Shown: one piece after another, positions 589-63,999 of the stretch
Layout: every line of letters begins with the position of its first letter
Position numbering within the stretch: the stretch's first letter is position 1
Origin: an uncultured bacterium
GTDB lineage: Bacteria > Zhuqueibacterota > QNDG01 > DSAB01
NCBI GenBank assembly: GCA_964651045.1
Contig: CAZYVD010000006.1
Location: 8,570 to 72,569 of the forward strand
Length of the DNA stretch: 64,000 nt
Direction: 5' to 3'
The notes under the pieces: generated by a model
What the model was told of the DNA's origin: nothing
The model's input: the letters and a program-made list of their open reading frames with translations, nothing else
Database searches by the model: none
Translations under genes and position numbers: made by a program

Positions 589-663
589 CGGGGCGTGGCG
601 CAGCCCGGTTAGCGCGCATGACTGGGGGTCATGAGGTCGAGAGTTCAAATCTCTCCGCCCCGA
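589..663 (+). tRNA. tRNA-Pro (anticodon GGG)
   Basis: Manual cloverleaf fold: 7-bp acceptor stem CGGGGCG/CGCCCCG; D-stem GCGC/GCGC; anticodon stem CATGA/TCATG with loop CTGGGGG (anticodon GGG, G37); T-stem GAGAG/CTCTC with T-loop TTCAAAT; discriminator A. CCA is not encoded. Length 75 nt. Confidence 0.85.
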
Positions 664-50766: not shown

Positions 50767-52476
50767 ATGGGATCAAAGATAAATGTACTTCCTGAAAGTG
50801 TAATGCGGCGAATTGCAGCCGGGGAGGTAGTTGAAAGGCCTGCCTCTGTTGTTAAGGAACTGATCGAAAATTCTATCGATGCTGGAGCCACAAGTATATC
50901 TCTATATATAAAGGGAAGCGGGATAGACCTAATATGCGTAACAGACAATGGAGAGGGAATGAGTCAGGAGGATGCTCTAATATGCTGTAAGAAGCATGCC
51001 ACGAGTAAGATCTCAAATTATGAAGATCTTGAAAGAGTAACTACCATGGGATTCAGGGGAGAGGCACTATCAAGCATAGCTGCTGTATCGAGGATGGAGA
51101 TAACAACGCGTACAGATGATGAGCAGGAGGCTACTCGTATCTATATTGAAGCTGGCAGGATTGGTGAGGTTTCGAAGGTGGCTGCAAACAGGGGAACCAA
51201 GATTGTTGTAAAGGATCTATTTGGTAATGTACCTGCGAGAAGAAAATTTTTAAAAAGTCCAGCTACAGAGTTGAGACACATTGTTTCAGTATTCAGAAGG
51301 ATAAGTATTGCGTTTCCAGAGATCGATTTTTCTCTTTTTGTGGAAGATCAGAAGACCCTTGACCTGAGGAAAAGCTCACTTAAGGAAAGATTGAAGGAGC
51401 TTATAACAGAACATAATTTTAAAAGATTGATTCATTTCGATTCTCAGTTTTCGGGTATCAGGATTAAGGGCTATATAAGCCGCTTTGAACATTCTGGAAA
51501 AAGCAGGACCAATCAGATGATTTTCTTGAATAATAGATATATAGTAAGTAAGAGTCTAACTCACGGAATTTTATCAGCTTACGGTCCATCGGCTGAGAGA
51601 AGTATATATCCTCAATATTTCATATTTCTGGAGATGGATCCCAGCCAATTTGATGTCAATGTCCATCCAACAAAGATAGAGGTAAGGTTTCGTGATGAGA
51701 AGTATGTCCATGATGCATTGAAAAGGTCTGTACAAAATGTGCTAAAGGAGTCTGTATCGCTACCCGACTTCAGGGTTGTAAAGGGGAGTAGAAGTGGTTC
51801 GAGTAGTTTAAGATTTACCCGAAAAAGTCGAGGGAATTCTGCTCAACTTACACTGATAGCTCAGAGCCCCGGGCTAGAAGTAAATGAAAAGGAGTATTTA
51901 TCAAAAGAGGTAGAAAAACCGCTTCTCTGGCAGATTCACAATAAATATATACTCTCACAGATAAAGAGCGGTCTCACAATCATAGATCAGCATGTTGCAC
52001 ATGAAAGAATTATATATGAAAGCGTGATTCAGTCGAGAAGCAGAGATTCCATTCCATCCCAGCAGCTTCTTTTTCCCCAGACAATTCAATTAGAACAGAA
52101 CGATTACGAAGTATTGATTGAGATATTACCACATCTTGAAAGGATTGGGTTTGGACTCAAAGATTTTGGTGGAAATACAGTTGTCATAGAGTCTATTCCA
52201 ATGGATGTTAAGGCTGGAAGAGAAAGAGAAATACTTACTGAAATAATAGAATCTTATAAGAACGATAGAAGTGGCATAGAGGATGTATGGGATACTGTTG
52301 CAAAGACTTTTGCCTGCAAGGCAGCAGTAAGGGCGGGAGATCCATTGAAGTATCATGAAATGGCCTCACTCGTTGATCGTCTGTTTGCAACAAAAGAACC
52401 ATATTTCTGTCCTCATGGAAGACCCATTATTATAAATCTAACCCTTGATGAAATTGATAAGAGATTTGGTCGTTAA
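50767..52476 (+). CDS. mutL: DNA mismatch repair protein MutL
   Basis: GHKL ATPase N-terminus (RIAAGEVVERPASVVKELIENSIDAGAT) and a C-terminal dimerisation domain. Confidence 0.9.
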   Translation: MGSKINVLPESVMRRIAAGEVVERPASVVKELIENSIDAGATSISLYIKGSGIDLICVTDNGEGMSQEDALICCKKHATSKISNYEDLERVTTMGFRGEALSSIAAVSRMEITTRTDDEQEATRIYIEAGRIGEVSKVAANRGTKIVVKDLFGNVPARRKFLKSPATELRHIVSVFRRISIAFPEIDFSLFVEDQKTLDLRKSSLKERLKELITEHNFKRLIHFDSQFSGIRIKGYISRFEHSGKSRTNQMIFLNNRYIVSKSLTHGILSAYGPSAERSIYPQYFIFLEMDPSQFDVNVHPTKIEVRFRDEKYVHDALKRSVQNVLKESVSLPDFRVVKGSRSGSSSLRFTRKSRGNSAQLTLIAQSPGLEVNEKEYLSKEVEKPLLWQIHNKYILSQIKSGLTIIDQHVAHERIIYESVIQSRSRDSIPSQQLLFPQTIQLEQNDYEVLIEILPHLERIGFGLKDFGGNTVVIESIPMDVKAGREREILTEIIESYKNDRSGIEDVWDTVAKTFACKAAVRAGDPLKYHEMASLVDRLFATKEPYFCPHGRPIIINLTLDEIDKRFGR

Positions 52477-52482
52477 GAGGCG

Positions 52483-53406
52483 ATGAACAGAAGAATTGCA
52501 CTCTTGATTGTTGGTCCAACAGCATCGGGTAAATCTGAACTAGCCCTGAGAATATCTGAACTTTTAGAGTGTGAGATAGTTTCGGCCGACTCTCGCCAGA
52601 TCTTTCGTTATATGGATATTGGAACAGCCAAACCATCTGTCGAGGAGAGAAAAAGAGTGGTTCATCATTGCATCGATATAGTAGATCCGGATGAATATTT
52701 TAGTGCTGGAGAGTATGGCAAGATTGCACGAAACATAATCGAAGATATATTAGATAGAAAAAAGATTCCAGTAGTAGTAGGGGGGTCGGGGCTCTATATA
52801 AGGGCATTGGTAGAGGGAATATTTGAGGGAGATTATAGGGATCCGCAGTTAAGAGAGGAGTTGAAAAAAAAGATATCGAGCTGTGGGATCGATGAGGTAT
52901 ACAATGAGCTGAAGAAAGTCGATCCAAAAACAGCATCAAGAATACATCCAAATGATAAGAAAAGGATCATAAGGGCACTGGAAGTATTCAGGCTTTCCGG
53001 ACAACCCATGTCGAAAATGCAAGAAGAGAGAACAATTGCTGCCAATTTTAAGACACTATTTTTCGGACTGAAGTGGCCGAGAGAGCAGCTCAATAAAAGA
53101 ATAGATTTAAGAGTAGAAAAAATGTTAAAATGGGGCCTTATTGATGAGGTGAGAAGATTAAGATCGATGGGTTATGATCTGAGATACAACAGCATGGATT
53201 CTGTAGGATATAAGGAGCTGTTTCGATATCTCAATGGAGAAATTAGCCTTGAGGAGGCGGTTAACAGTATAAAGAGAAATACAAGACGCTTTGCCAAAAG
53301 ACAGATGACATGGTTTCGAAAGAATGGTAGAATTATATGGATTGAATTGAAAGAGCCTGTTGATTGGCATGATGTGGCAGTCCATGTAGTCGAATCTATT
53401 AAATAA
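52483..53406 (+). CDS. miaA: tRNA dimethylallyltransferase
   Basis: P-loop IVGPTASGKSELAL and DSRQIFRYMDIGTAKP. Confidence 0.9.
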   Translation: MNRRIALLIVGPTASGKSELALRISELLECEIVSADSRQIFRYMDIGTAKPSVEERKRVVHHCIDIVDPDEYFSAGEYGKIARNIIEDILDRKKIPVVVGGSGLYIRALVEGIFEGDYRDPQLREELKKKISSCGIDEVYNELKKVDPKTASRIHPNDKKRIIRALEVFRLSGQPMSKMQEERTIAANFKTLFFGLKWPREQLNKRIDLRVEKMLKWGLIDEVRRLRSMGYDLRYNSMDSVGYKELFRYLNGEISLEEAVNSIKRNTRRFAKRQMTWFRKNGRIIWIELKEPVDWHDVAVHVVESIK

Positions 53407-53408
53407 AT

Positions 53409-54128
53409 CTAAATAAATTTTTCACGTTTCTGTAGAAGAAATAGTGCCCACAGAACTGATATGATGGTTCCAATGGCAAGATATATCCTGTTTTCCAATA
53501 TAATGCCTGACCATATTGCTTCATTTATATCGGATGGGAGGTAGAATGGATTTAAAAATACGTTCCACTTGCTGCGTATTAGTATTCCACTGCCAATCCA
53601 GAAACCGAGTCCGATTATAATCATCAATACAGCCGTGCCATACCCATTTCTAACCATTGATGAAAACATAAAGGCAAGAGCACCTATAAAGCATATAGGA
53701 AACATGAGATGAAAGACCATCTCTATGATGGGAAAGGTTACGATTGCAATGTAACTCATGATACTTAGTAATAAAAGTATTAGTGCTACGATTACATAGA
53801 TCTGGATCAATCGAACAAGCCAGACCTTGTACCGATAGTTGGCAATCCCAAATATTATTTCAATCATCTGATAATCTACATCGTTTTGAATTCCAAATGT
53901 GGTTGGATAGAATATGATTAAAATACCTGGAAAGAGAAGCCAGTAATATACCATTCCTGATGATGGATTTGAATCGGAGAATAGATTAGCAATAACTATT
54001 ATCATGAAAAATAGTACTGCTCCAGTCAGGAAAAAGATAAACTTATTTGAGAATATTATTTTAAGATTATAGCGAAATATCCTGAAACAAAGATCGATAC
54101 TATTTTTTAGAAATTTTTGTGATTTCAT
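53409..54128 (-). CDS. ABC-2-type transporter permease
   Basis: 239 aa, 6 predicted TM helices. The start overlaps the ATPase-containing upstream ORF by 4 nt (ATGA). Confidence 0.6.
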   Translation of the reverse strand: MKSQKFLKNSIDLCFRIFRYNLKIIFSNKFIFFLTGAVLFFMIIVIANLFSDSNPSSGMVYYWLLFPGILIIFYPTTFGIQNDVDYQMIEIIFGIANYRYKVWLVRLIQIYVIVALILLLLSIMSYIAIVTFPIIEMVFHLMFPICFIGALAFMFSSMVRNGYGTAVLMIIIGLGFWIGSGILIRSKWNVFLNPFYLPSDINEAIWSGIILENRIYLAIGTIISVLWALFLLQKREKFI

Positions 54129-57100
54129 TGTTCTTGACTCACCATAGATGATTTTTCCTTTAACAACCAGAGATATGCATCTTCGAGTGTTGGAAGAACA
54201 CTCTTTGCATTCTTATATGGTTTTTTCTCTGATATGCATCTCACTCTTATTTTCTTGCCATCTCGCATGTGATGAACAACCAGCATACTCTTTCTTAGAG
54301 ATTCAAACTCTTCTAAATTTACCACAAACTGCCAGACATGACCTCTTGCAATGTGGGTCATATCAACAGGATTGCCGAGATATTTTAACTCTCCCTTATT
54401 TAGAACGGCTACTTTGTTACAGGAACTCGAGATGTCCTCTATAATATGAGTAGAGAATATTACAACTCTGTCGCGGCTTAGCTCCACCAAAAGATTGCGG
54501 AATCTTATACGCTCCCTGGGATCGAGTCCTGCTGTGGGTTCATCCACCACTAAAATGCGCGGAAGATGAAGAAGGATTTGTGCAATTCCAATTCTCTGTT
54601 TCATTCCTCCTGAGAATGATCCTATTCTATCATGTTTGTGCTCATCCATATGAACCGCAGAGAGCACATAATCAACTCTTTTCTCTCTTTCTTTTCTATC
54701 TATTATGTTTTTTAGGATTGCCTGATAGTTAAGAAATTCCCAGGCAGTCATATTCTCATAGGCTCCAAACTCCTGTGGAAGGTATCCAATCAGTCCCTGA
54801 AGTTCCTCTCTATATTTATTTACATCCAGGCCATTAATCCATATTTTCCCATAACTCTGTTCCAAAATGCCGCATATTATTCTCATTAGAGTGGTCTTTC
54901 CTGCACCGTTTGGGCCAAGCAGTCCAAACATTCCGCTTCCAATTTCGACAGATATTCTGTTTAATGCTCTGAATGGCCGTTTTTTTCTTCCAATGAAGGG
55001 TATCAACTGAACAAATCTGTAGAATCCTTTTCTCAGCCCACTGAGTTTTCCATCTATTCTTGCGATGTTTATCTTTTTACTATGAATTCTGTTGGATGTA
55101 GTGTAGATTATCAGCAGGAACGACCATATGAATCCGATCAAAAGAACCACTCCGATATTGTGCCACTTCATTTGAAATATTATCAAATTAATTAGTGGGA
55201 ATCCCCAGAAAAAAGATCTATCAATCGTATTTGCCAGTTTTTTATTCGAGCGGTTGGTAAGATAGAGTCGAATTGGATGGAGGAGAAAGAATATATAAGT
55301 GTAAAGCAGGTGAGAGAGTATGAAGATCCACAATCCACTGCGAATATAGAAATAGATAAAGTAGATAAGAAATCCGAGTAGAGGTATCTTCCAGAGATAT
55401 GAATCAAAATCTCTCAAAGAGAGGTAGGCCTTTGCAGTACCAGAATGTTTTTCGATTCTTTCGCCTTTCTTCCATTCCCTGATAAACCTGCTCTCACGGT
55501 CATAGATCTTTACTAGATTCTGTATCTTTATGATGATCTTTTCGTCTCTTCCTATAAGCCTTGTCTTTGCCTGTCGGAGAGAAGTCATAATAAAATATGT
55601 CAGGGCAGGTATTGTTACAACAGATGAAACAGATGCAATGATTTTCCATATAAAATTGTGAATGTTGTTAAGTATGAACCAGAAGCATAATATGAGCAGA
55701 ATGAGGTGAAAAATTTTAATCTTCCAGTTCAGGCTCTTTTCCCAGTTTATTGCATTCTCCATTCCAGAATAGAATGTTGGAATAATTATTAATGTAAGAA
55801 GCGTGGAGAGTGAAAGTCCGCCTATTACTGTAATAGCAAATGGTGCTCCTATCTGTGTGACATATTCAGCCTTTCCGAGTGCAAGTGGAATCATTGCAGT
55901 TATGGTGGTCACGGCAGTTATCGTTATTGGACGCAGCCTGGCCTGGCCTGCAGTAATCAACGCCCTGTTTCTTGTGAATCCTCTCTTCCTCAGTATTCTT
56001 GTGTAGTCGATCAGGATGATGGAGTTGTTTACAACTATTCCGAGCAGAATTATGAATCCCATGAGAGTGTTGGCATTAGATAGACCGTGACCGGTAAAAA
56101 TAAGAAGCCAGAATGAGCCTGCAGCAGCAAATGGAATTGAAAACATTATTACAAGGGGAAGATAGAAAGATTCGAAAACCGCTGATAGAATCATGTAGAT
56201 CAATATAAAGGCTGCACCTATTAGATAGTAGAACTCTGTTAGCTCAGTTTCATCATGCAGAACCTCAAGTGCAATGCCAGCAGGCACTCTCATCTCAGAT
56301 ATCAGGTTGTCGATCTTTTCTCTTGCCGCTTTGAGCAGTCCTTTGGATTGATTTATTTCATCAAGAAATTTGTATACAACCTCGATCTGTCTCTCCTGAT
56401 TTACTCTTCTTATGCTGCCGAGTCCAGATGCAAATACGATATTTGAAATATGTTGTAGCTGACTGACGCTTCCACCAGCTCCTACTATGGTCAGATTCCT
56501 GAGATCGTCGATTGTCTTGTTCTTTTTCTCCTCCTGACTTGTGCTGATGATTATCTCATATTCTTCATTTCCCTGTTTGAAAACCATTCCAGATGGGAAC
56601 TGATTCTGGAAGGTTGAGAGTTCTCTTGAAACAGAAATCGCATCGATTCCAAAATGACTCGTAATATACTTGTCAAAATAGATGTGGACCTCCGGTCTCT
56701 CTTTGGAGATATTCATCCTGACCCAGTCGATCTCGTCTATGTTTTCAAGAAAATATTCTATATCTTCTGCCGTCTTTTTCATTCTATTAAAATCTCTTCC
56801 CTTGATCACTATTCTTTCTCTTTGAGTGCCAATCCCAAGCATTCTCAGAAAACCTTCTCCAGGGTTGATTGTTCCGCCTCGTTTGGAGCCTGCAAAAGTG
56901 ATCTGAGGCTGTTCGAATGTGATATCGCCAAGGTAAAAGTCATCTATTCTTTTTTTAATATCGTTTTTAATTTGTGCAACAGTTCGATTCTTAATTTTTT
57001 CAAAATTATCTTTAAGAGTAATTGTTATTGTTGCCTCACCAGCATCTATTTTACTGATCACTTCCTCTTTTTCCTCTAAACCCTCCAGCCTTTTTTCAAT

Positions 57101-58861
57101 CTCGACCACTGCGAGATCGGTACTTTCCAGTGTTGTTCCTTCCGGCATTGTAAGTGACAGGTTGAATTCAGGGGTCTCGATCTCTCTTGATACATCAAAA
57201 CTAAGTGCAAGGCAGATAAAAACACTCAGGATAGTAAATATTGAAGCGCCTATCAAGGTGCGAACAGGATACCTCATACACGATTTTAAGAGAAGAGTAT
57301 ATATTTGTATGATGCGGCTGTTCTGGGATATATGCCTGAAAACAGAGTTAGAAATATCAGACCTTCGGGTCAGATAGTAATGTACAACCATTGGAATTAG
57401 AAACAGAGCAACGATTAAGGATACAAACAAGGTGGAGATTATTGATATGGAAACATGACGGCCGAACAGCTTAATAAAAAAATTTGATGTAAATGCAAAT
57501 GGAACAAATACAACTACTGTTGTAAGAGTTGCAGCAAAAATTGACCGCCACACCTCTCGTGTCCCCTGAATTACAGCTGTATCCCTTTCCTTTCCCCTGG
57601 ATACTAATCTGTAAATGTTTTCAAGAACAACCACACTGTTGTCTAGGAGCATTCCTATTGCAAGGGCCATACCGACCATTGTCAATGTATTTATTGTGAT
57701 ACCAAAACCATAGAAAAGGTTAAATGTTGTGAATACTGAAATGGGTATTGCAAGTGCTATGACAAACACGAGTTTTAAATTTTTTAAAAAGATCCACAGT
57801 ATTGCTACAGCCAGAATACCACCCACTATTGCAAGCTGTATGATTAGTTTTATGTTTTTCTCCATTATTTCGGCAGTGTTTGACTGGATGATTATCTCTA
57901 TATCCTTATATTTCAGTCTTTCATTGAGTTTCTTGATGAGCTCTTTTGTTGTATGTGAGAGGTCGATTAAGTTAACTCTCTGATCACGAATGAGTCTTAC
58001 AGTAACCGCTTCCTTTCCATTGACTCTACTTATAGATGTTTCCTCTTTTACCCCAAAATTTATATCAGAAACATCTTTTAAAAAGATAGGTCCGGTGTTG
58101 GATATAACAATATTTTCGAGATCGCTAATCTTTTCATATTCGGCAATAACATTTACATAATATTTTTTATTACTGTTGTAGAGGCTTCCTACAAAGCTTC
58201 TATTTTGTCCATTCTGAAGAATAGCAGACCTTATTTGATATGGCGTTATCCCTAATGCATGGCATACATCTTCGTCTATCACTATTTCAACAGATTTTTC
58301 TCTGCCTCCATATACACTAACGCCAGCAATCCCGTCTACAGTTTCGAGTTCACCAACTATCTCTTGGTCAGTGATGTTCCTGACCCTGTCTACGCCTCCA
58401 CTGCCTCGTACCTGAAGCTCCATAAAGAGATTTGACAGTTGTTCTGTGTCGATTTTTATGACATTTACAACAAATTCATCAGGCAATGATGATTTTATTT
58501 CATTGACCTTTTCCTGAAGCTTTAGATAGGCATATTTTATATCAACATTCTGCCTGAAGTAGAGAGTTATCGTGCCCCTCCGACTATCTATAAATGTTTG
58601 TATCTCCTCGATTCCCTCAAGAGTGCTGATTGCACCTTCTAATGGAATAACTGCCTGTGTTTCGACATAGGATGGTGTAACTTCGAGTAGTGTATTGATC
58701 TGAACAATCAGTAAAGGGAGTTCGGCATCTGGATAGAGTTCAACAGCAAGATTTCTATATGATATATAACCAAGCATGGTCAGACCTACAAACACCATGC
58801 TGATAAATGTCTTTCTTGTCAGGATCAATCGAGATAGGAGGCTTTTTGTTATCTTTTCCAT
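54125..58861 (-). CDS. Fusion protein of 1578 aa: complete RND (AcrB/HAE-type) efflux permease (about aa 1-1035), a 2-TM linker, and a C-terminal ABC-transporter ATP-binding domain (about aa 1108-1578) interrupted by a membrane-helix insert
   Basis: N-terminal 12-TM RND architecture with two large periplasmic loops, a TM4-like AIGMLLDNSVVVLENI and a last TM ending IIIPTFY. It continues without a stop into Walker A GLLGPNGAGKTT, Q-loop YLPQE, signature FSGGMKQR, Walker B ILVVDEP, D-loop AGLD and H-loop FSTHII. The ORF is continuous in the six-frame track. Confidence 0.7.
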   Translation of the reverse strand: MEKITKSLLSRLILTRKTFISMVFVGLTMLGYISYRNLAVELYPDAELPLLIVQINTLLEVTPSYVETQAVIPLEGAISTLEGIEEIQTFIDSRRGTITLYFRQNVDIKYAYLKLQEKVNEIKSSLPDEFVVNVIKIDTEQLSNLFMELQVRGSGGVDRVRNITDQEIVGELETVDGIAGVSVYGGREKSVEIVIDEDVCHALGITPYQIRSAILQNGQNRSFVGSLYNSNKKYYVNVIAEYEKISDLENIVISNTGPIFLKDVSDINFGVKEETSISRVNGKEAVTVRLIRDQRVNLIDLSHTTKELIKKLNERLKYKDIEIIIQSNTAEIMEKNIKLIIQLAIVGGILAVAILWIFLKNLKLVFVIALAIPISVFTTFNLFYGFGITINTLTMVGMALAIGMLLDNSVVVLENIYRLVSRGKERDTAVIQGTREVWRSIFAATLTTVVVFVPFAFTSNFFIKLFGRHVSISIISTLFVSLIVALFLIPMVVHYYLTRRSDISNSVFRHISQNSRIIQIYTLLLKSCMRYPVRTLIGASIFTILSVFICLALSFDVSREIETPEFNLSLTMPEGTTLESTDLAVVEIEKRLEGLEEKEEVISKIDAGEATITITLKDNFEKIKNRTVAQIKNDIKKRIDDFYLGDITFEQPQITFAGSKRGGTINPGEGFLRMLGIGTQRERIVIKGRDFNRMKKTAEDIEYFLENIDEIDWVRMNISKERPEVHIYFDKYITSHFGIDAISVSRELSTFQNQFPSGMVFKQGNEEYEIIISTSQEEKKNKTIDDLRNLTIVGAGGSVSQLQHISNIVFASGLGSIRRVNQERQIEVVYKFLDEINQSKGLLKAAREKIDNLISEMRVPAGIALEVLHDETELTEFYYLIGAAFILIYMILSAVFESFYLPLVIMFSIPFAAAGSFWLLIFTGHGLSNANTLMGFIILLGIVVNNSIILIDYTRILRKRGFTRNRALITAGQARLRPITITAVTTITAMIPLALGKAEYVTQIGAPFAITVIGGLSLSTLLTLIIIPTFYSGMENAINWEKSLNWKIKIFHLILLILCFWFILNNIHNFIWKIIASVSSVVTIPALTYFIMTSLRQAKTRLIGRDEKIIIKIQNLVKIYDRESRFIREWKKGERIEKHSGTAKAYLSLRDFDSYLWKIPLLGFLIYFIYFYIRSGLWIFILSHLLYTYIFFLLHPIRLYLTNRSNKKLANTIDRSFFWGFPLINLIIFQMKWHNIGVVLLIGFIWSFLLIIYTTSNRIHSKKINIARIDGKLSGLRKGFYRFVQLIPFIGRKKRPFRALNRISVEIGSGMFGLLGPNGAGKTTLMRIICGILEQSYGKIWINGLDVNKYREELQGLIGYLPQEFGAYENMTAWEFLNYQAILKNIIDRKEREKRVDYVLSAVHMDEHKHDRIGSFSGGMKQRIGIAQILLHLPRILVVDEPTAGLDPRERIRFRNLLVELSRDRVVIFSTHIIEDISSSCNKVAVLNKGELKYLGNPVDMTHIARGHVWQFVVNLEEFESLRKSMLVVHHMRDGKKIRVRCISEKKPYKNAKSVLPTLEDAYLWLLKEKSSMVSQEQ

Positions 58862-58897
58862 AACCTGCCGATCGATTTTCTGGTAAGGATCAGAAAT

Positions 58898-61800
58898 CTA
58901 TTTTTTCCTTATCGATGTTCTGGCGATTTCCAGCACATTGTAGACACATGGAATCACCAGTAATGTAAGTAGGGTAGAGGTGACAAGTCCACCGATTACC
59001 GCCAGAGCCATGGGAGCCCTCAAGGCTGCTCCCTCCCCAAAGCCAAGTGTTAAAGGAAGGAGTGCGAGTATTGTTGTAAGGCTAGTCATTATTATGGGTC
59101 GTATTCTTCTCTGGCCAGCTTCTGTGATTGCTTCCTCTATTGAAATTCCTTTTTCCCTTAGTCTGGTTATTGCATCTACAAGAATTATTGAATCATTAAC
59201 AGCAATACCAACGAGCATTATGATTCCAATTACAGCAATGATATTAAGTGGTTTCCCAATTATAAAGAACATCAGTATGGCACCAACAACTGCTAATGGG
59301 ATAGTTAAAATTATTGTAAAGGGATGAACAAGAGATTCGAATGTTGATGCAAGAACCATATAGACTAAAATTACAGAGAGTATCAGTGCAAAGCCAAGGT
59401 TTCTCATGGCAACTTTTCGCTTCTGTTCTGCCCCTGTGATCTCATACCGGTAGTCGGGAGGAAAATCGATAGAACCAAGCTTCGATTCTATCTCGTGGAT
59501 TATGTGATTAAATGGACGAGAGCTCTGGATATGTGCGCTCACCTGTCCGATCCTTGTCTGGTTTCTTCTGAGTATTTTTTTAGGCGCTCTTGTAATTCTT
59601 ATTGATGCAACATCATCGAGGAGTATTTTTCTATTACCGCTTGTAAGTTCGATATCCCTGAGTTGATCTATACTAACATCGGGGAGGCGTATTGTGATGT
59701 CTTTTAATTCACCTTCCGATTCCCATTGACCTGCACTCTTGCCCATCAGCCGATCTCTGAGCTGAGATGTTATCTGATTTACTGTTATATTATACACTCC
59801 TGCTCGCATTCTATCGACAACTACTTCTATCTCAGGAGCACCCTCTTCGAAACTTGTCTCAACATTAAACAGCTCTTTTATCTCGATCATTTTGTTTTTT
59901 ACCTGCTCTGTAAGCTCTTCTATGACAGAGAGCTCTTTTCCCTTTACCTCTACAACAACAGGAGCAGACTCTGTTCCTGTTACAGTCTGAAGGGCTGTCT
60001 GATCCTGAATGAATTTGACCTCAAGATCTGGAATATTTTGAGCGATTGTACTGAGGTTTTCTATTATTTCTTCTGAGGATTTTTCTCTATCTGGTCTTAA
60101 TACTATTTTTATTAATGCACTGTTTTCACCCTCAAGGATAGAGTTCTCTGTGCTACCAAAACTCTCCGAAGGTCCTATCCTTGCATATAGAGTCTCAAGG
60201 TCTTTTCCGATTGCCCTGCGGAATAGATTTTCAACATTATCTACAACTTGTTCCGTACGACGCAGCTCTGTTCCCTCTGGGAGGATCAGTTCCACAGAAA
60301 ACTGTCCCGAATCTATATATGGAATAAATTCGCTTCCCACTATTGGGAAAAGAAGTACTCCTGTTGCTATCAGTGCAGCAGCCGCTGCTATAACATACCA
60401 CTTTATTTTAAGGACTCTTTCAAGAAATTTTTTATACCATTCGAAGCGAATTGATTTCCCTACAGTAGAGACATTTTTGCGGAGAAATTTTGAGGTGAGC
60501 ATTGGAATTACAAGAATGGCAACAATTAGTGAAGAGAGAAGGGAAAAGGCAACAGTCAATGCCTGATCTTTAAACAACTCTCCTGCAGCATGGTGAATGT
60601 AAACAATTGGAAGAAACACAACGATTGTTGTTATTGTGGAAGCTGTTATTGCACCACCGACCTGTGCTGTTCCTGTAACTGATGCCTCGCGGATCGAGAG
60701 ACCGGACTCAATGTTTCGAAATATGTTTTCCATTACAACTATTGCATTATCAACAAGCATACCGGCTCCGAGTGCAAGTCCACCGAGTGTCATTATGTTT
60801 ATGGTCAATCCTGTGAAGTACATAAGGTTGAATGTTGCAACAATCGACATGGGAATGGCAAGGCTTATGATTGCAGTTGTACCGATCCTTCTGAGAAATA
60901 CATATAGTATGACTACTGCAAGTATGACTCCAATGAGGCCAGTTTCTTTTACCTCGTTTACTGCCTTCTGGATAAAGTCACCCTGATTTTGAATTATTGT
61001 GAATTCATAGCCAGGCAGTGCCTTTTTAATAGATTCTAATACCTTTTTTAACTGATTTACAGCGTTTATTGTATTGAATTTGGTTTCTTTATATATGGAG
61101 AGTCCAAGACAGCGTTTTCCATTTACACGAACAATATTTATCGGTTCTTTATTTGACAGATTCACTTCTGCTACGTCTTTTAAAAATATTGGGACCCTTT
61201 GTGCTGAACTATCCTGCAATGAAATTTCTTGGTAATTTTGTTGACTTCTGTAGTCTATTATCAGATTTTTTATATCATCAAGTGATTGAAATTCTCCAAT
61301 TCCCTTTATTATGTATTGAGTACCCATTTCAACAATTGTTCCGCCAGATATGTTTCTATTTATGCTCTGGATTCTGTTTGTTATAGTTTCTGGATAGATT
61401 CCATAGGCCCTGAGCAGATATGGATCGGTCCTGATTACTACCTCTTTTTCTTCTTTACCTGAGATTTCTACCTCTGCTATTCCTTCGAGTCTTATCAGTT
61501 CGTTTCTAATATAGTTTTCGGCAATCTTACGAAGGTCATCCATATCGTCGATGTCTGGATTGTACATGCCTACTATCATTACAGGTTCTTCGTTTGGATT
61601 GTGCTGGGTTATGTTGAGTAGATCTATATTTGAGTTTTGGCTGTACCCGGTAAGCGCCTTCTGAAGGTCAAGGAAGGCTTCTTCCATGTCTGCATCGTTT
61701 TGATACTCTACTGTTATCTGTGCAGAGCCCACTTTGGATATAGAAGAGACCTGAATCACCTTTTTCTGTCTTATTGCTATAGACTCTATGTTTCTTACAA

Positions 61801-62032
61801 ACTGATACTCTATTTCTTCGGGTGGCCTTTCGCCTGCCTTTAGTTCTATAAAGATTCTTGGATTATTGAGATCAGGAAAGAGATCTATTCCGAGTTTTTT
61901 AAAGGAGATATATCCGAGTAGAAATATACCAAGGACGACCATTAAGATTGTAATCGGATAGTTTACAGAAAATTGTGTGATTTTTTTCATGTTATTAAAA
62001 AATCCCCATTCCAAATGAACGATTGGCTGCAA
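58898..62032 (-). CDS. RND efflux permease (AcrB/HAE1-like), first of two tandem RND genes
   Basis: 1044 aa; 12 TM helices with two periplasmic loops; TM4 motif ALGAGMLVDNAIVVMENIF; canonical C-terminal end after TM12 (VIPCVYNVL). Confidence 0.85.
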   Translation of the reverse strand: MQPIVHLEWGFFNNMKKITQFSVNYPITILMVVLGIFLLGYISFKKLGIDLFPDLNNPRIFIELKAGERPPEEIEYQFVRNIESIAIRQKKVIQVSSISKVGSAQITVEYQNDADMEEAFLDLQKALTGYSQNSNIDLLNITQHNPNEEPVMIVGMYNPDIDDMDDLRKIAENYIRNELIRLEGIAEVEISGKEEKEVVIRTDPYLLRAYGIYPETITNRIQSINRNISGGTIVEMGTQYIIKGIGEFQSLDDIKNLIIDYRSQQNYQEISLQDSSAQRVPIFLKDVAEVNLSNKEPINIVRVNGKRCLGLSIYKETKFNTINAVNQLKKVLESIKKALPGYEFTIIQNQGDFIQKAVNEVKETGLIGVILAVVILYVFLRRIGTTAIISLAIPMSIVATFNLMYFTGLTINIMTLGGLALGAGMLVDNAIVVMENIFRNIESGLSIREASVTGTAQVGGAITASTITTIVVFLPIVYIHHAAGELFKDQALTVAFSLLSSLIVAILVIPMLTSKFLRKNVSTVGKSIRFEWYKKFLERVLKIKWYVIAAAAALIATGVLLFPIVGSEFIPYIDSGQFSVELILPEGTELRRTEQVVDNVENLFRRAIGKDLETLYARIGPSESFGSTENSILEGENSALIKIVLRPDREKSSEEIIENLSTIAQNIPDLEVKFIQDQTALQTVTGTESAPVVVEVKGKELSVIEELTEQVKNKMIEIKELFNVETSFEEGAPEIEVVVDRMRAGVYNITVNQITSQLRDRLMGKSAGQWESEGELKDITIRLPDVSIDQLRDIELTSGNRKILLDDVASIRITRAPKKILRRNQTRIGQVSAHIQSSRPFNHIIHEIESKLGSIDFPPDYRYEITGAEQKRKVAMRNLGFALILSVILVYMVLASTFESLVHPFTIILTIPLAVVGAILMFFIIGKPLNIIAVIGIIMLVGIAVNDSIILVDAITRLREKGISIEEAITEAGQRRIRPIIMTSLTTILALLPLTLGFGEGAALRAPMALAVIGGLVTSTLLTLLVIPCVYNVLEIARTSIRKK

Positions 62033-63082
62033 TCATCTTATTATCTTGACTCTTGAACGATTCTTAAGTGCTTCGAATCCCTTTATTATGAGTCTCTCAT
62101 TTTCCTCCAGTCCCTTTATGACTTCAACTTCTTCGGGATTTTCAAGGCCTGTGGTTATGGTCCTTTCTACAGCAACTCCCTTTCTAACTATAAATACTGT
62201 TTTTCCTCTTCGCCTCGACAGTATTATATCTTTTGGAATTACTATTGCACTATCCTTTCTTGCAACAATTATCTCTGCTTTGACAAACATGCCTGGTTTT
62301 ATGATTAAATTTTTATTGTCTATGATCATTGCTACTTTGAATGTCCTTGTCTCTGCATTTATCGCTGGTGAGACTTTCGTGATTTTACCAAGGAGGGTAT
62401 CTTCCTGTAGTGAGTAGTTGGTTATTCTAACGCTCTGTGATAAAGAAACTCTTCCCATCTCCTTTGCTGGAAGATTTACCTCCAGATAAAGCTGGTTGTA
62501 GTTCATAAGCCTTACCATTAACTGATTTGCCTGAACCCTGACCATTGGAGTGTAATATGGAAGATCTACGATAATTCCATCGAATGGTGCAGTTATGCTC
62601 ATTTTTGCTATTTGCAGAATTGCGTTATCGTAGTTATATTTTGCATTTATGTAGGCAAGTTCGGAATTTTTAAGCTCTCTGAGAGTCACTCCGCCTTTTT
62701 CATAGAGGGATTTTTGTTTTTCATATTCTCTTTTTGATATGTCAAGATTTAATCTTTTCGCCTCGATTGCTATGTTATTCTCATACTCCTCATCTTCAAG
62801 CCTGATCATGACCTTTCCTTTGGCTACCCAGTCACCAGGACCATACGGTCTCCCCGTATTTGGATTCATAAGGAGATTATAACGCCCAGAAATTTCAGAT
62901 TTGAGCGATACCTCCTTTATTGCCCTCACTGTTCCTGTCGATGTGATGAATTCTTCGATAGATTTTGGTTTTATCTCAACTACCGAAACCGGCACTGCTA
63001 TCTCGGTTTCGATGTTTGGCTCCTGTTTTCCACAGTTCAGCAGAAGAATAAAGACAGCCAGTAATAATGCTCTTTTCTTCAC
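62033..63082 (-). CDS. RND-type periplasmic adaptor (membrane-fusion protein, HlyD family); lipoprotein
   Basis: Lipobox LLLNCGK; coiled-coil hairpin plus lipoyl and beta-barrel regions. The stop abuts the RND start. Confidence 0.8.
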   Translation of the reverse strand: MKKRALLLAVFILLLNCGKQEPNIETEIAVPVSVVEIKPKSIEEFITSTGTVRAIKEVSLKSEISGRYNLLMNPNTGRPYGPGDWVAKGKVMIRLEDEEYENNIAIEAKRLNLDISKREYEKQKSLYEKGGVTLRELKNSELAYINAKYNYDNAILQIAKMSITAPFDGIIVDLPYYTPMVRVQANQLMVRLMNYNQLYLEVNLPAKEMGRVSLSQSVRITNYSLQEDTLLGKITKVSPAINAETRTFKVAMIIDNKNLIIKPGMFVKAEIIVARKDSAIVIPKDIILSRRRGKTVFIVRKGVAVERTITTGLENPEEVEVIKGLEENERLIIKGFEALKNRSRVKIIR

Positions 63083-63093
63083 CTGTTTACTCC

Positions 63094-63999
63094 TTATTTT
63101 ATTATTGATGGAACCACAGATTCATCCTTTTCAAAATCATATAGTGACTGGATCTTCATGTTCAGGAGTTCGAGTTTGTAGCTGATAAGTGAATTTATAA
63201 GGCTTTGCTTTTTTTGGGAAAGTTGTGTCTGATATAGCTGAAGGTCCATTCCTGTGAGGTCACCATTATTGTAGCGTTCAAGATTGATATCATAAGTCCG
63301 CTGCGCGTTTTCGACATTTTTCCTTGCAAGTTCGATCTGGGTTTCGAGGTTCTTGAGGTTGCGGTAAACATTTCTGATTGCAATAATAATGTTTTTCTTC
63401 TCATCATCTAAGTCGAGTTTGCTGACCTCTATTGTTGCCTCAGAGGCCTTTATTCTCGATCTTTTCTCGCCCCAGTCAAAGAGTGGAATATTAAAAGAGA
63501 GGGCCACTCTTTGATTTTTTGTTGGAACATTGTAAATGTCTTGAAATTTTTCATCTGTGCCGATGATTCCATACGAAAGATTGACCGTTCCCTTGAACTC
63601 ATTAATTGCCGATGTTCGTATTAGATTGAAATATGCATTTTCAATATCGATCTTTTGTTGTCTCAACTCCATTCTGTATTTCAGCCCGTGATCTATTGCC
63701 TTTTGCAGGTCGATCTTTATCGGTTGATAATTGACGTCCGCTACTACATCGATCTGCTCAAAGAGGGATATTCCGATTAATTTTTTTAAATTATCCTTTG
63801 CATTCTCAAGAGATACTTCACTGTTCTGTACTTGCGATTTGCTTGAAGCAACATTCAATTCTGCCTGATAGAGCTCCTCCAATGGGGCAAGACCAGCATT
63901 TACTTTATTTTGTGTTATCTCATAATTTTTTTCATAGTTTTTGAGTTCTTCTTTTGCTATTTCAAGGCTCATTCTTGCCTGGTATACTGTAAAAAAACT
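63094..63999 (-). CDS. TolC-family outer-membrane efflux protein; partial, with the N-terminus beyond the window end
   Basis: Coiled-coil-rich repeats typical of outer-membrane factor (OMF) proteins (LLNMKIQSLYDF..., ELARKNVENAQRTYDINLERYNNG). The reading frame is open to the window edge. Confidence 0.7.
   Translation of the reverse strand, partial: SFFTVYQARMSLEIAKEELKNYEKNYEITQNKVNAGLAPLEELYQAELNVASSKSQVQNSEVSLENAKDNLKKLIGISLFEQIDVVADVNYQPIKIDLQKAIDHGLKYRMELRQQKIDIENAYFNLIRTSAINEFKGTVNLSYGIIGTDEKFQDIYNVPTKNQRVALSFNIPLFDWGEKRSRIKASEATIEVSKLDLDDEKKNIIIAIRNVYRNLKNLETQIELARKNVENAQRTYDINLERYNNGDLTGMDLQLYQTQLSQKKQSLINSLISYKLELLNMKIQSLYDFEKDESVVPSIIK

What the first reader, a model, noticed from the sequence alone, without database searches (positions are those of the whole stretch)
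53409..63999. Efflux locus in which an RND pump is continuous with an ABC ATPase: TolC - MFP - RND - RND::ABC-ATPase - ABC-2 permease
On the minus strand the genes run in this order: TolC-like OMF (partial), lipoprotein adaptor, a conventional 1044-aa RND permease, then after only 36 nt a 1578-aa ORF. That ORF begins as a second complete 12-TM RND permease and continues without any stop into a full ABC nucleotide-binding domain carrying Walker A, Q-loop, signature, Walker B, D-loop and H-loop. It is followed, with a 4-nt ATGA overlap, by an ABC-2-type permease. Tripartite RND systems (proton-driven) and tripartite ABC systems (MacAB-TolC-like, ATP-driven) are normally distinct. Two RND genes in tandem behind one adaptor recalls the MdtABC arrangement, but I know of no described covalent RND-ABC ATPase fusion. 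If the fusion is real, the locus may be a hybrid-energised or dual exporter.
Basis: partly seen in the sequence, partly recalled or inferred. Interest (0 to 1): 0.85.

Follow-up and report, generated by a model that had tools for sequence, protein, structure and literature searches.

The report
Conserved RND pump fused to ABC ATPase
A drug-pump-type membrane protein that normally runs on the proton gradient is joined here, in one 1578-residue chain, to an ATP-burning motor domain, and the same five-gene pump locus recurs across several bacterial phyla, so the fusion is real, apparently undescribed, and could couple two energy sources in one export machine.

Summary
On the minus strand lie OMF (partial), lipoprotein adaptor, RND1, a 1578-aa RND2::ABC-ATPase, and a 239-aa membrane protein that overlaps it by ATGA.

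The fusion is not an assembly artefact:
- The identical protein is on 5 contigs.
- Fused proteins of 1550-1590 aa define 19 separate 50%-identity clusters.
- The same five-gene operon occurs in the cultured Labilibacter sediminis CG51, in Bacteroidales MAGs, in Calditrichaeota and in Melioribacteraceae.
- A few lineages are split. One of these is a real fission that leaves a remnant of the ATPase's first strand on the RND gene. Another is only a frameshift.

New anatomy:
- RND2's TM12 is followed by two extra TM helices.
- The ATPase domain is itself interrupted: strand beta1 is separated from the rest by about 170 aa containing four TM helices.

Both RND paralogs keep the TM4 Asp and TM11 Arg, and all ATPase motifs are intact.

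The most likely function is an ABC-2 exporter tethered to an RND1/RND2 pump that shares one adaptor and one outer-membrane duct, giving two-step export. This mechanism is inferred, not shown. I found no literature on the fusion; databases carry only automatic names.

The parts
63094..63999 (-). Outer-membrane factor (TolC-like), 3' part only. The gene runs off the window end; the full gene is 489 aa in L001.
   Evidence: Pfam OEP E 2e-34 and TIGR01844/01845. In frame to 63999. Full length seen in L001.
62033..63082 (-). Periplasmic adaptor (MFP), 349 aa, a lipoprotein with lipobox LLNC.
   Evidence: TIGR01730 RND_mfp 183.7 bits, above the 94.9 cut-off. HlyD_D23. N-terminus read.
58898..62032 (-). 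RND1, a conventional 12-TM RND permease. The maximal ORF is 1044 aa; the likely start is Met15 at 61990, giving about 1030 aa.
   Evidence: ACR_tran 18-1034, E 6.5e-221. TM4 'VDN', TM10 'VND' and TM11 'RIRPIIMT'.
55754..58861 (-). RND2 domain of the fusion protein (aa 1-1036), a complete RND permease 28% identical to RND1.
   Evidence: ACR_tran profile 2-1018 of 1021. Best solved relatives are MdtB, ZneA and CmeB. D407 (TM4) and R975 (TM11) are kept; the AcrB K940 position is Asn.
55541..55753 (-). Extension of two extra TM helices (TM13 and TM14, aa about 1044-1095), returning the chain to the cytoplasm.
   Evidence: Hydropathy. AF2 helices 10-30 and 34-59 of the 542-aa query. Conserved in all fused homologues and retained on the RND gene in the split form L004.
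55499..55540 (-). NBD strand beta1 with the A-loop Tyr (KIIIKIQNLVKIYD, aa 1108-1121).
   Evidence: Modelled as a strand (E73-84). Splicing it onto the rest of the NBD extends matches to profile positions 1-3 of several ABC ATPase models and raises their scores. Split-form proteins start just before it.
54980..55498 (-). Insertion inside the NBD. It consists of an invariant amphipathic helix (RFxREW, aa 1125-1136) and then four TM helices as two hairpins (aa about 1158-1262). No family match.
   Evidence: Alignments A1 and A2 give invariant R, R, E, W. AF2 helices 89-104 and 122-226. Hydropathy. A profile of this region finds only this family: 142 hits among 1.84 billion representatives.
54125..54979 (-). 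Rest of the ABC ATPase (aa 1295-1578) plus stop codon. Contains Walker A, Q-loop, signature, Walker B with catalytic E1441, D-loop, H-loop H1472, and a C-terminal beta-rich domain.
   Evidence: ABC_tran E 2e-28. Best NCBIfam matches are GldA and DrrA-type, below their cut-offs. Foldseek best matches are TM_1403, NosF and ABCA4/7/3 NBDs. Motif coordinates.
53409..54128 (-). A 239-aa six-TM protein with the type V (ABC-2) ABC permease fold. Its start overlaps the fusion gene's stop (ATGA).

Best explanation
**What it is**
This is a conserved five-gene envelope export module of FCB-group bacteria: OMF, lipoprotein adaptor, RND1, RND2::ABC-ATPase and a type V ABC permease. RND2 is a complete RND permease. 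Two extra TM helices lead from its C-terminus to an ABC nucleotide-binding domain. That domain is itself anchored in the membrane by a four-helix insertion between its first and second strands.

**How it most likely works**
Two copies of this ATPase, together with two copies of the downstream 239-aa permease, would form an ABC-2-type exporter physically tethered to the RND assembly. The proposed steps are:
1. The ATP-driven ABC module moves substrate out of the cytoplasm or the inner leaflet.
2. It delivers the substrate next to the proton-driven RND1/RND2 pump.
3. The RND pump expels it through the shared adaptor and outer-membrane duct.

A heterotrimer with two RND2 and one RND1 (as in MdtB2C) would reconcile the threefold RND symmetry with the twofold ABC symmetry.

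**Shown versus inferred**
- Shown: the architecture, its conservation, intact catalytic motifs, the permease fold and a consistent topology.
- Inferred: the assembly, the stoichiometry, substrate hand-off and use of both energy sources. The substrate is unknown.
For: **The fusion is real and conserved**
- The identical protein is on 5 contigs.
- There are 19 full-length clusters of 1550-1590 aa, always with the linker at about residues 1030-1295.
- The same operon occurs in Labilibacter sediminis CG51 and two Bacteroidales MAGs, in Calditrichaeota and in Melioribacteraceae.

**The ABC module looks complete**
- All NBD motifs are invariant across the family.
- The NBD is of the ABC-2/type V class.
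- The downstream protein has the type V permease fold.
- That protein's most conserved stretch (F78-K101) is the loop between TM2 and TM3, where type V permeases carry the NBD-coupling helix.

**Topology is consistent**
- Even numbers of added helices (2, then 4) keep every NBD piece cytoplasmic, with basic loops on the inside.

**Both RNDs look functional**
- Both give full-length ACR_tran matches, and both keep the TM4 Asp and TM11 Arg.

**The split variant keeps both membrane pieces**
- In the genuine split variant the 2-TM extension stays on the RND and the 4-TM insertion stays on the ATPase. This suggests the helices dock the two parts rather than merely link them.

**Precedents in the literature**
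- MdtB2C1 heterotrimers (PMC7015380).
- Inner-membrane pumps feeding trans-envelope pumps (PMC4338810).
Against: - There is no experimental or co-folding evidence that the ABC module and the RND touch beyond the covalent link.
- The AF2 model of the linker plus NBD has only moderate confidence (pLDDT 75, pTM 0.51), so the helix packing is not established.
- Neither RND is an MdtB or MdtC orthologue, so the 2:1 stoichiometry is a guess.
- Both RNDs lack the AcrB-type D408 and K940, so proton coupling is assumed from partial conservation only.
- The six extra TM helices have no known role.
- Rare split forms show that covalent linkage is not strictly required.
Confidence: 0.45

Rival explanations
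1. Co-assembly without hand-off. The RND pump and the ABC-2 exporter are two independent transporters that share the adaptor and the outer-membrane duct (or only share expression). The fusion merely fixes co-localisation and stoichiometry. Substrates and energy cycles are separate.
For: Each module looks self-sufficient: complete RNDs and a complete NBD with a type V permease. Rare lineages encode the two halves separately. ABC-2-type exporters operating with adaptors exist in E. coli (YbhGFSR; my own knowledge, and PMC7190983 listed).
Against: The fusion, the 2-TM extension and the 4-TM insertion are conserved across phyla at about 55% identity, which is hard to explain by co-expression alone. 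The linker region occurs in no other protein family. Even the split form keeps both membrane pieces.
Confidence: 0.25
2. ATP-energised RND. ATP binding and hydrolysis in the fused, membrane-anchored NBD drives (or is required for) the conformational cycle of RND2 through the extra TM helices. The RND would then be wholly or partly ATP-powered, and the 239-aa protein would serve as a coupling subunit.
For: The NBD is covalently joined to TM12 through TM helices and is itself membrane-inserted, an arrangement suited to transmitting force within the membrane. Both RNDs lack the AcrB residues D408 and K940, which are essential in AcrB (their essentiality is my own knowledge).
Against: The TM4 Asp, the Glu of the VxEN motif and the TM11 Arg are kept in both paralogs, including the unfused RND1, so there is no RND2-specific loss of charged relay residues. 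NBDs work as dimers while RNDs work as trimers. The presence of a bona fide type V permease gives the NBD an ordinary partner.
Confidence: 0.15
3. Regulatory NBD. The ATPase acts as a nucleotide-sensing gate or an assembly factor for the RND pump, for example by controlling adaptor or duct engagement, rather than transporting anything itself.
For: The NBD carries a C-terminal beta-rich domain like the regulatory domains of TM_1403, NosF and ABCA NBDs. MacB-type ABC proteins act by mechanotransmission rather than by transport across the inner membrane (PMC5985334, listed).
Against: The catalytic Glu, H-loop, Q-loop and signature are invariant, as expected for a working motor. A conserved six-TM permease partner is always present.
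Confidence: 0.1
4. Artefact. A misassembly, sequencing frameshift or lost stop codon joins two separate genes in this window.
For: Some database relatives are fragmented (L003, L007), and shorter proteins of 480-950 aa dominate the hit list.
Against: Those fragments are frameshifts of otherwise continuous sequence: the 652 aa and 931 aa pieces in L003, and L007 is continuous in the +1 frame. The identical 1578-aa protein is on 5 contigs, one 1574-aa cluster member is seen on 27 contigs, and the fusion is present in a cultured isolate and in other phyla.
Confidence: 0.01

Closest known systems
MdtABC / MuxABC-type RND systems (two RND paralogs behind one adaptor; MdtB2C1 heterotrimer)
   Same: Two tandem RND genes follow one adaptor gene. 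The best solved relative of RND2's N-terminal half is MdtB. A heterotrimer would explain why two paralogs always co-occur.
   Different: Neither RND reaches the MdtB or MdtC equivalog cut-offs (267-377 bits against 1584 and 1774). RND2 carries 6 extra TM helices and an ABC ATPase. An OMF gene and an ABC permease gene are part of the operon.
Type V (ABC-2) ABC exporters with separate NBD and six-TM permease: NosFY, Wzm-Wzt, DrrAB, GldAFG, PmtCD, and the ABCG/ABCA transmembrane domains
   Different: The NBD is interrupted by a 4-TM insertion after strand beta1 and is fused to an RND. The permease matches no ABC2_membrane sequence family. NCBIfam scores for the NBD are below the subfamily cut-offs.
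MacAB-TolC (tripartite ABC efflux pump, type VII)
   Same: An ABC ATPase is encoded together with an adaptor and a TolC-like duct. It is a possible ATP-driven contribution to trans-envelope export.
   Different: MacB has an N-terminal NBD fused to a 4-TM permease with a large periplasmic domain (PMC5985334, PMC8277102). Here the permease is a separate six-TM type V protein without a large periplasmic domain, and the periplasmic machinery is supplied by RND proteins.
AcrAB-TolC-type HAE-1 RND pumps
   Same: Both RNDs give full-length ACR_tran matches. The adaptor is an RND_mfp lipoprotein and an OMF is present. The TM4 Asp (D407) and TM11 Arg are conserved.
   Different: AcrB D408 is Asn here, and AcrB K940 is Asn in both paralogs. 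Scores are far below the RND_permease subfamily cut-offs. RND2 has 14 + 4 TM helices and a cytoplasmic ATPase.

Membership tests
RND superfamily permease (Pfam ACR_tran) | Full-length match to the 12-TM, two-periplasmic-loop profile above the gathering score | tested here: met
   RND2 scores 524 bits over profile 2-1018 of 1021. RND1 scores 736 bits over 1-1020. The cut-off is 28.
RND superfamily permease (AcrB-type HAE-1) | AcrB proton-relay residues D407, D408 (TM4), K940 (TM10) and R971 (TM11) | tested here: not met
   D407 and R971 equivalents are present. D408 is Asn and K940 is Asn in both RND1 and RND2, and across 19 full-length homologues. NCBIfam RND_permease_1 and _2 scores (317-586 bits) are below the 1250 cut-off.
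RND superfamily permease | Functional trimer driven by proton-motive force | not testable with these tools
   Needs biochemistry or structure determination.
MdtABC/MuxABC two-RND systems | Two RND paralog genes in tandem after one adaptor gene | tested here: met
   The order MFP-RND1-RND2 is seen in the window and in L001, L007-L009, L011, L088 and L089.
MdtABC/MuxABC two-RND systems | Orthology to MdtB and MdtC (NCBIfam equivalog cut-offs) | tested here: not met
   RND1 scores MdtC 376.7 and MdtB 374.8. RND2 scores MdtB 267.6 and MdtC 234.7. The cut-offs are 1774 and 1584.
MdtABC/MuxABC two-RND systems | B2C heterotrimer | not testable with these tools
   Stoichiometry is known only for E. 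coli MdtBC (PMC7015380, citing Kim et al. 2010).
ABC ATPase (Pfam ABC_tran) | Walker A, Q-loop, signature, Walker B with catalytic Glu, D-loop and H-loop | tested here: met
   ABC_tran scores 100 bits against a cut-off of 25. All motifs are invariant in 26 homologues.
ABC ATPase | Contiguous NBD fold, with beta1 directly followed by beta2 | tested here: not met
   About 170 aa with four TM helices separate beta1 (aa 1108-1121) from the rest of the NBD (from aa 1295). The splice test restores profile positions 1-15.
Type V / ABC-2 exporter | Six-TM permease with the type V fold (N-terminal interfacial helix, TM1-TM6) | tested here: met
Type V / ABC-2 exporter | Sequence match of the permease to an ABC2_membrane-type family | tested here: not met
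   No Pfam or NCBIfam family at E <= 0.01. No precomputed Pfam hit in 120 homologues.
Type V / ABC-2 exporter | NBD of the DrrA/GldA/NosF/ABCA class | tested here: inconclusive
   The best NCBIfam hits are GldA (174 bits, cut-off 402.6) and DrrA (161 bits, cut-off 312), both below cut-off. The best structural matches are TM_1403, NosF and ABCA4/7/3.
MacB-type (type VII) tripartite ABC pump | NBD fused N-terminally to a 4-TM permease with a large periplasmic domain | tested here: not met

The most novel reading that the evidence does not exclude
The fused, membrane-inserted ATPase is mechanically coupled to RND2 through the six extra TM helices. ATP hydrolysis and the proton gradient would then jointly drive one trans-envelope export cycle. 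This would be the first RND transporter whose cycle depends on ATP, and the first ABC domain with transmembrane helices inserted inside its catalytic fold.
Probability: 0.15. Interest if true: 0.9.

Novelty: new variant of a known kind. Interest (0 to 1): 0.72.

Why it matters
RND and ABC tripartite pumps are treated as separate classes with separate energy sources. The 2021 Chem Rev review of tripartite systems mentions no fusion between them in the part of its text held in the library.

A covalent RND-ABC protein conserved across several FCB phyla would be a natural experiment on three open questions:
- How inner-membrane transport and trans-envelope transport are coupled.
- How a twofold ABC motor can be matched to a threefold RND.
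- Whether an NBD can work with transmembrane helices inserted in its fold.

It also defines two unnamed protein families: the 239-aa permease with more than 3000 homologues, and the linker/insertion region. Because the operon occurs in a cultured isolate (Labilibacter sediminis CG51), genetics and cryo-EM are feasible.

Tried and rejected
1. I tested whether RND2 alone has lost its proton-relay residues, which would have pointed to ATP drive. This is rejected. RND1 and RND2 both have TM4 'DN'. TM10 is 'NN' in RND2 and 'ND' or 'NN' in RND1 orthologues. The TM11 Arg is kept in both.

2. I checked whether the 'split' homologue in L007 counts as evidence for separate genes. This is rejected. The sequence is continuous in the +1 frame, so it is a frameshift. 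The 931-aa P0046 is likewise the distal fragment of a frameshifted fusion.

3. The genome-contig scan with the linker-only alignment A2 failed because no stretch was conserved enough. Genome-level counts are therefore small, and I relied on the exhaustive profile search instead.

4. The afdb50 fold library was not available.

5. The Rfam scan of the window found only one tRNA at 589-663 and no riboswitch near the operon.

6. Six full-text literature searches and a term search within the 2021 Chem Rev review found no description of an RND-ABC fusion. Paywalled literature and TCDB could not be checked.

7. I could not inspect model coordinates or PAE. Whether the 2-TM extension packs against the 4-TM insertion therefore remains open.


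Full report
**1. Observation**

The minus strand of 53409-63999 carries five genes:
- a TolC-like OMF cut by the window end (63094-63999, in frame to the end);
- a 349-aa adaptor (62033-63082) with a lipobox LLNC;
- RND1 (58898-62032 as the maximal ORF);
- a 1578-aa ORF (54125-58861);
- a 239-aa ORF (53409-54128).

The 36-nt gap before the long ORF, and the ATGA overlap after it, are read directly from the sequence.

Pfam places ACR_tran on residues 10-1032 of the long protein (profile 2-1018 of 1021, E 7e-157) and ABC_tran on 1301-1444. All six ATPase motifs are present.

Three minor corrections apply:
- RND1 most likely begins at Met15 of the maximal ORF.
- The 239-aa protein matches no sequence family.
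- The junction is more elaborate than a linker (section 3).

**2. The fusion is real and conserved**

- The identical 1578-aa protein is recorded on five contigs, including a Logan assembly and a JGI metagenome, with the same neighbours.
- A search with the last 542 residues found thousands of relatives. Many carry both ACR_tran and ABC_tran.
- The listed relatives were all shorter than 950 aa, which first suggested splits. P0046 (931 aa) turned out to be the distal piece of a frameshifted gene: 652 aa plus 931 aa lie next to each other on a long-read contig.
- A profile of the linker alone was run exhaustively against 1.84 billion cluster representatives and found only 142 proteins. Nineteen of them are full-length proteins of 1550-1590 aa with the linker always at about 1030-1295. 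The rest are fragments or a few proteins of about 500 aa or about 1130 aa.
- Of 136 retrieved proteins containing the junction motif, 106 span it and 26 exceed 1400 aa.
- Complete loci show the same five-gene order with a fused protein in every case:
  - Labilibacter sediminis CG51, a cultured strain, 1576 aa;
  - two Bacteroidales MAGs, 1589 and 1567 aa;
  - a Calditrichaeota contig, 1575 aa;
  - a Melioribacteraceae genome, 1576 aa.
- Automatic annotation already reflects the architecture. JGI names it 'multidrug efflux pump subunit AcrB/ABC-type multidrug transport system ATPase subunit'. NCBI TLX78312.1 is 'ATP-binding cassette domain-containing protein'.

**Split variants exist but are rare**

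- L007 is only a frameshift, because the sequence continues in the +1 frame.
- L004, L005 and L006 are three assemblies of one lineage and show a true fission:
  - The RND gene (1101 aa) ends in 'LRINI*', followed in frame by 'LVVKIYDG'. This is a remnant of the ATPase's first strand, interrupted by TAG.
  - A duplicated 'EYIKSDEPLRIKVQNVVKIYD' with a new ATG then starts a 483-aa ATPase gene.
  - This points to a fused ancestor.
  - The RND keeps the two extra helices and the ATPase keeps its four.

**3. Anatomy of the junction**

The alignment of 26 homologues, the AF2 model (pLDDT 75) and hydropathy agree on the following order after RND TM12:
1. two TM helices (aa about 1044-1095);
2. a cytoplasmic segment, 'KIIIKIQNLVKIYD' (aa 1108-1121), modelled as a strand;
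3. an invariant amphipathic 'RFxREW' helix;
4. four TM helices arranged as two hairpins (aa about 1158-1262);
5. 'RPFRALNRISVEIGSGMFGLLGPNGAGKT' and the rest of the NBD.

The segment at 1108-1121 is the NBD's strand beta1 with the A-loop Tyr. Splicing it directly onto residue 1292 extends matches to profile positions 1-3 in several ABC ATPase models and raises their scores:
- GldA matches 3-212 instead of 16-212.
- LptB matches 2-222 instead of 17-222.
- GlcV gains 14 bits.

The ATPase domain is therefore interrupted by a four-helix membrane insertion. Even helix numbers and basic cytoplasmic loops keep all NBD pieces on the cytoplasmic side. No Pfam family covers the extension or the insertion, and the profile search finds them in no other protein family.

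**4. The ABC module**

- The NBD's best family matches are GldA and DrrA-type ATPases, both below their cut-offs.
- Its best structural matches are TM_1403, NosF and the ABCA4/7/3 NBDs, which belong to the ABC-2/type V class and carry a C-terminal domain.
- The 239-aa protein has more than 3000 unnamed homologues without Pfam hits, from Bacteroidota, Calditrichota, KSB1, Ignavibacteria relatives and others.
- Its most conserved stretch (F78-K101) lies between TM2 and TM3, where type V permeases carry the NBD-coupling helix. The role of this stretch is an inference.

**5. The RND parts**

- RND1 and RND2 are 28% identical. Both give full-length ACR_tran matches.
- The best solved relatives of RND2 are MdtB, ZneA and CmeB.
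- Relative to AcrB, both paralogs keep D407 and R971 but have Asn at D408 and at K940.
- TM10 reads 'NN' in RND2 throughout the family, and 'ND' or 'NN' in RND1 orthologues.
- There is therefore no RND2-specific degeneration that would single it out as ATP-driven. I considered that idea and dropped it.
- Neither protein reaches the MdtB or MdtC equivalog cut-offs. The resemblance to MdtABC is one of gene arrangement.

**6. Mechanism**

Shown:
- a complete RND pair with adaptor and duct;
- a catalytically intact ATPase, membrane-anchored and covalently attached to RND2;
- a type V permease partner;
- conservation of all of this across phyla.

Inferred (my best explanation, confidence about 0.45):
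- Two RND2::NBD chains and two permeases form an ABC-2 exporter tethered to an RND1/RND2 assembly.
- A 2:1 heterotrimer, as in MdtB2C1 (PMC7015380), would supply exactly two NBDs.
- The ABC module moves substrate from the cytoplasm or inner leaflet to the RND. The RND then expels it through the shared adaptor and OMF.
- This would be a hard-wired version of the two-stage efflux network described for Gram-negative bacteria (PMC4338810).

Rivals:
- independent pumps that merely co-assemble (0.25);
- an ATP-energised RND (0.15);
- a regulatory NBD (0.10);
- an artefact (0.01).

The substrate is unknown.

**7. Comparison and novelty**

The parts belong to known superfamilies: RND, ABC ATPase, type V permease, MFP and OMF. 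Three things appear undescribed:
- the covalent RND-ABC fusion;
- the 14-TM RND;
- the TM insertion inside an NBD.

Six full-text searches and a term search within the 2021 Chem Rev review of tripartite systems found nothing on them. Only open-access literature could be searched, and TCDB could not be checked.

I rate this as a new variant of known kinds, real and widespread, with a cultured host available for experiments.

Noticed in passing
L001 1-4265 (just beyond the window's right end, upstream of the OMF gene): A second ABC system precedes the operon. It consists of a DrrA/GldA-type ATPase (302 aa) and a 1110-aa protein with an N-terminal multi-TM domain, a weak M1-peptidase-like region and a Golvesin_C domain. 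The large protein is conserved upstream of the OMF gene in L009 and L011 (34-36% identity). L007 also has a large gene (1169 aa) in that position, but I did not compare it.
   Followed up: partly
L004 9060-9130 (also L005 and L006): A gene fission of the fusion protein is caught in the act. A TAG stop sits inside a remnant of the NBD's first strand. It is followed by a duplicated copy of about 20 aa of that strand with a new ATG, giving an 1101-aa RND and a 483-aa ATPase.
   Followed up: yes
L004 3072-5414: In the split-form lineage, six small ORFs (one with a Polbeta nucleotidyltransferase domain, typical of toxin-antitoxin pairs) lie between a 954-aa gene of unidentified family (no Pfam record; it touches the contig end) and RND2. 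This suggests an insertion into the operon.
   Followed up: no
window 61942-62032: The start of RND1 is ambiguous. The maximal ORF starts at TTG (1044 aa), gene callers chose a Met giving 1014 aa that would truncate TM1, and the Pfam match favours Met15 (about 1030 aa, start 61990).
   Followed up: partly
window 50767-53406 (+ strand): mutL (569 aa) and miaA (307 aa, IPPT) converge on the end of the operon. miaA ends 2 nt from the stop of the 239-aa gene, so there is essentially no room for a separate terminator between the convergent genes.
   Followed up: no
window 589-663: A single tRNA gene is the only Rfam match in the whole window.
   Followed up: no
L007 9780-10060 and L003 494-7132: Several database 'short' homologues are fragments created by frameshifts in MAG or long-read assemblies, including RND1 in L003 split into 463 aa and 176 aa. 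Protein-length statistics for this family in public databases therefore understate the fused form.
   Followed up: yes
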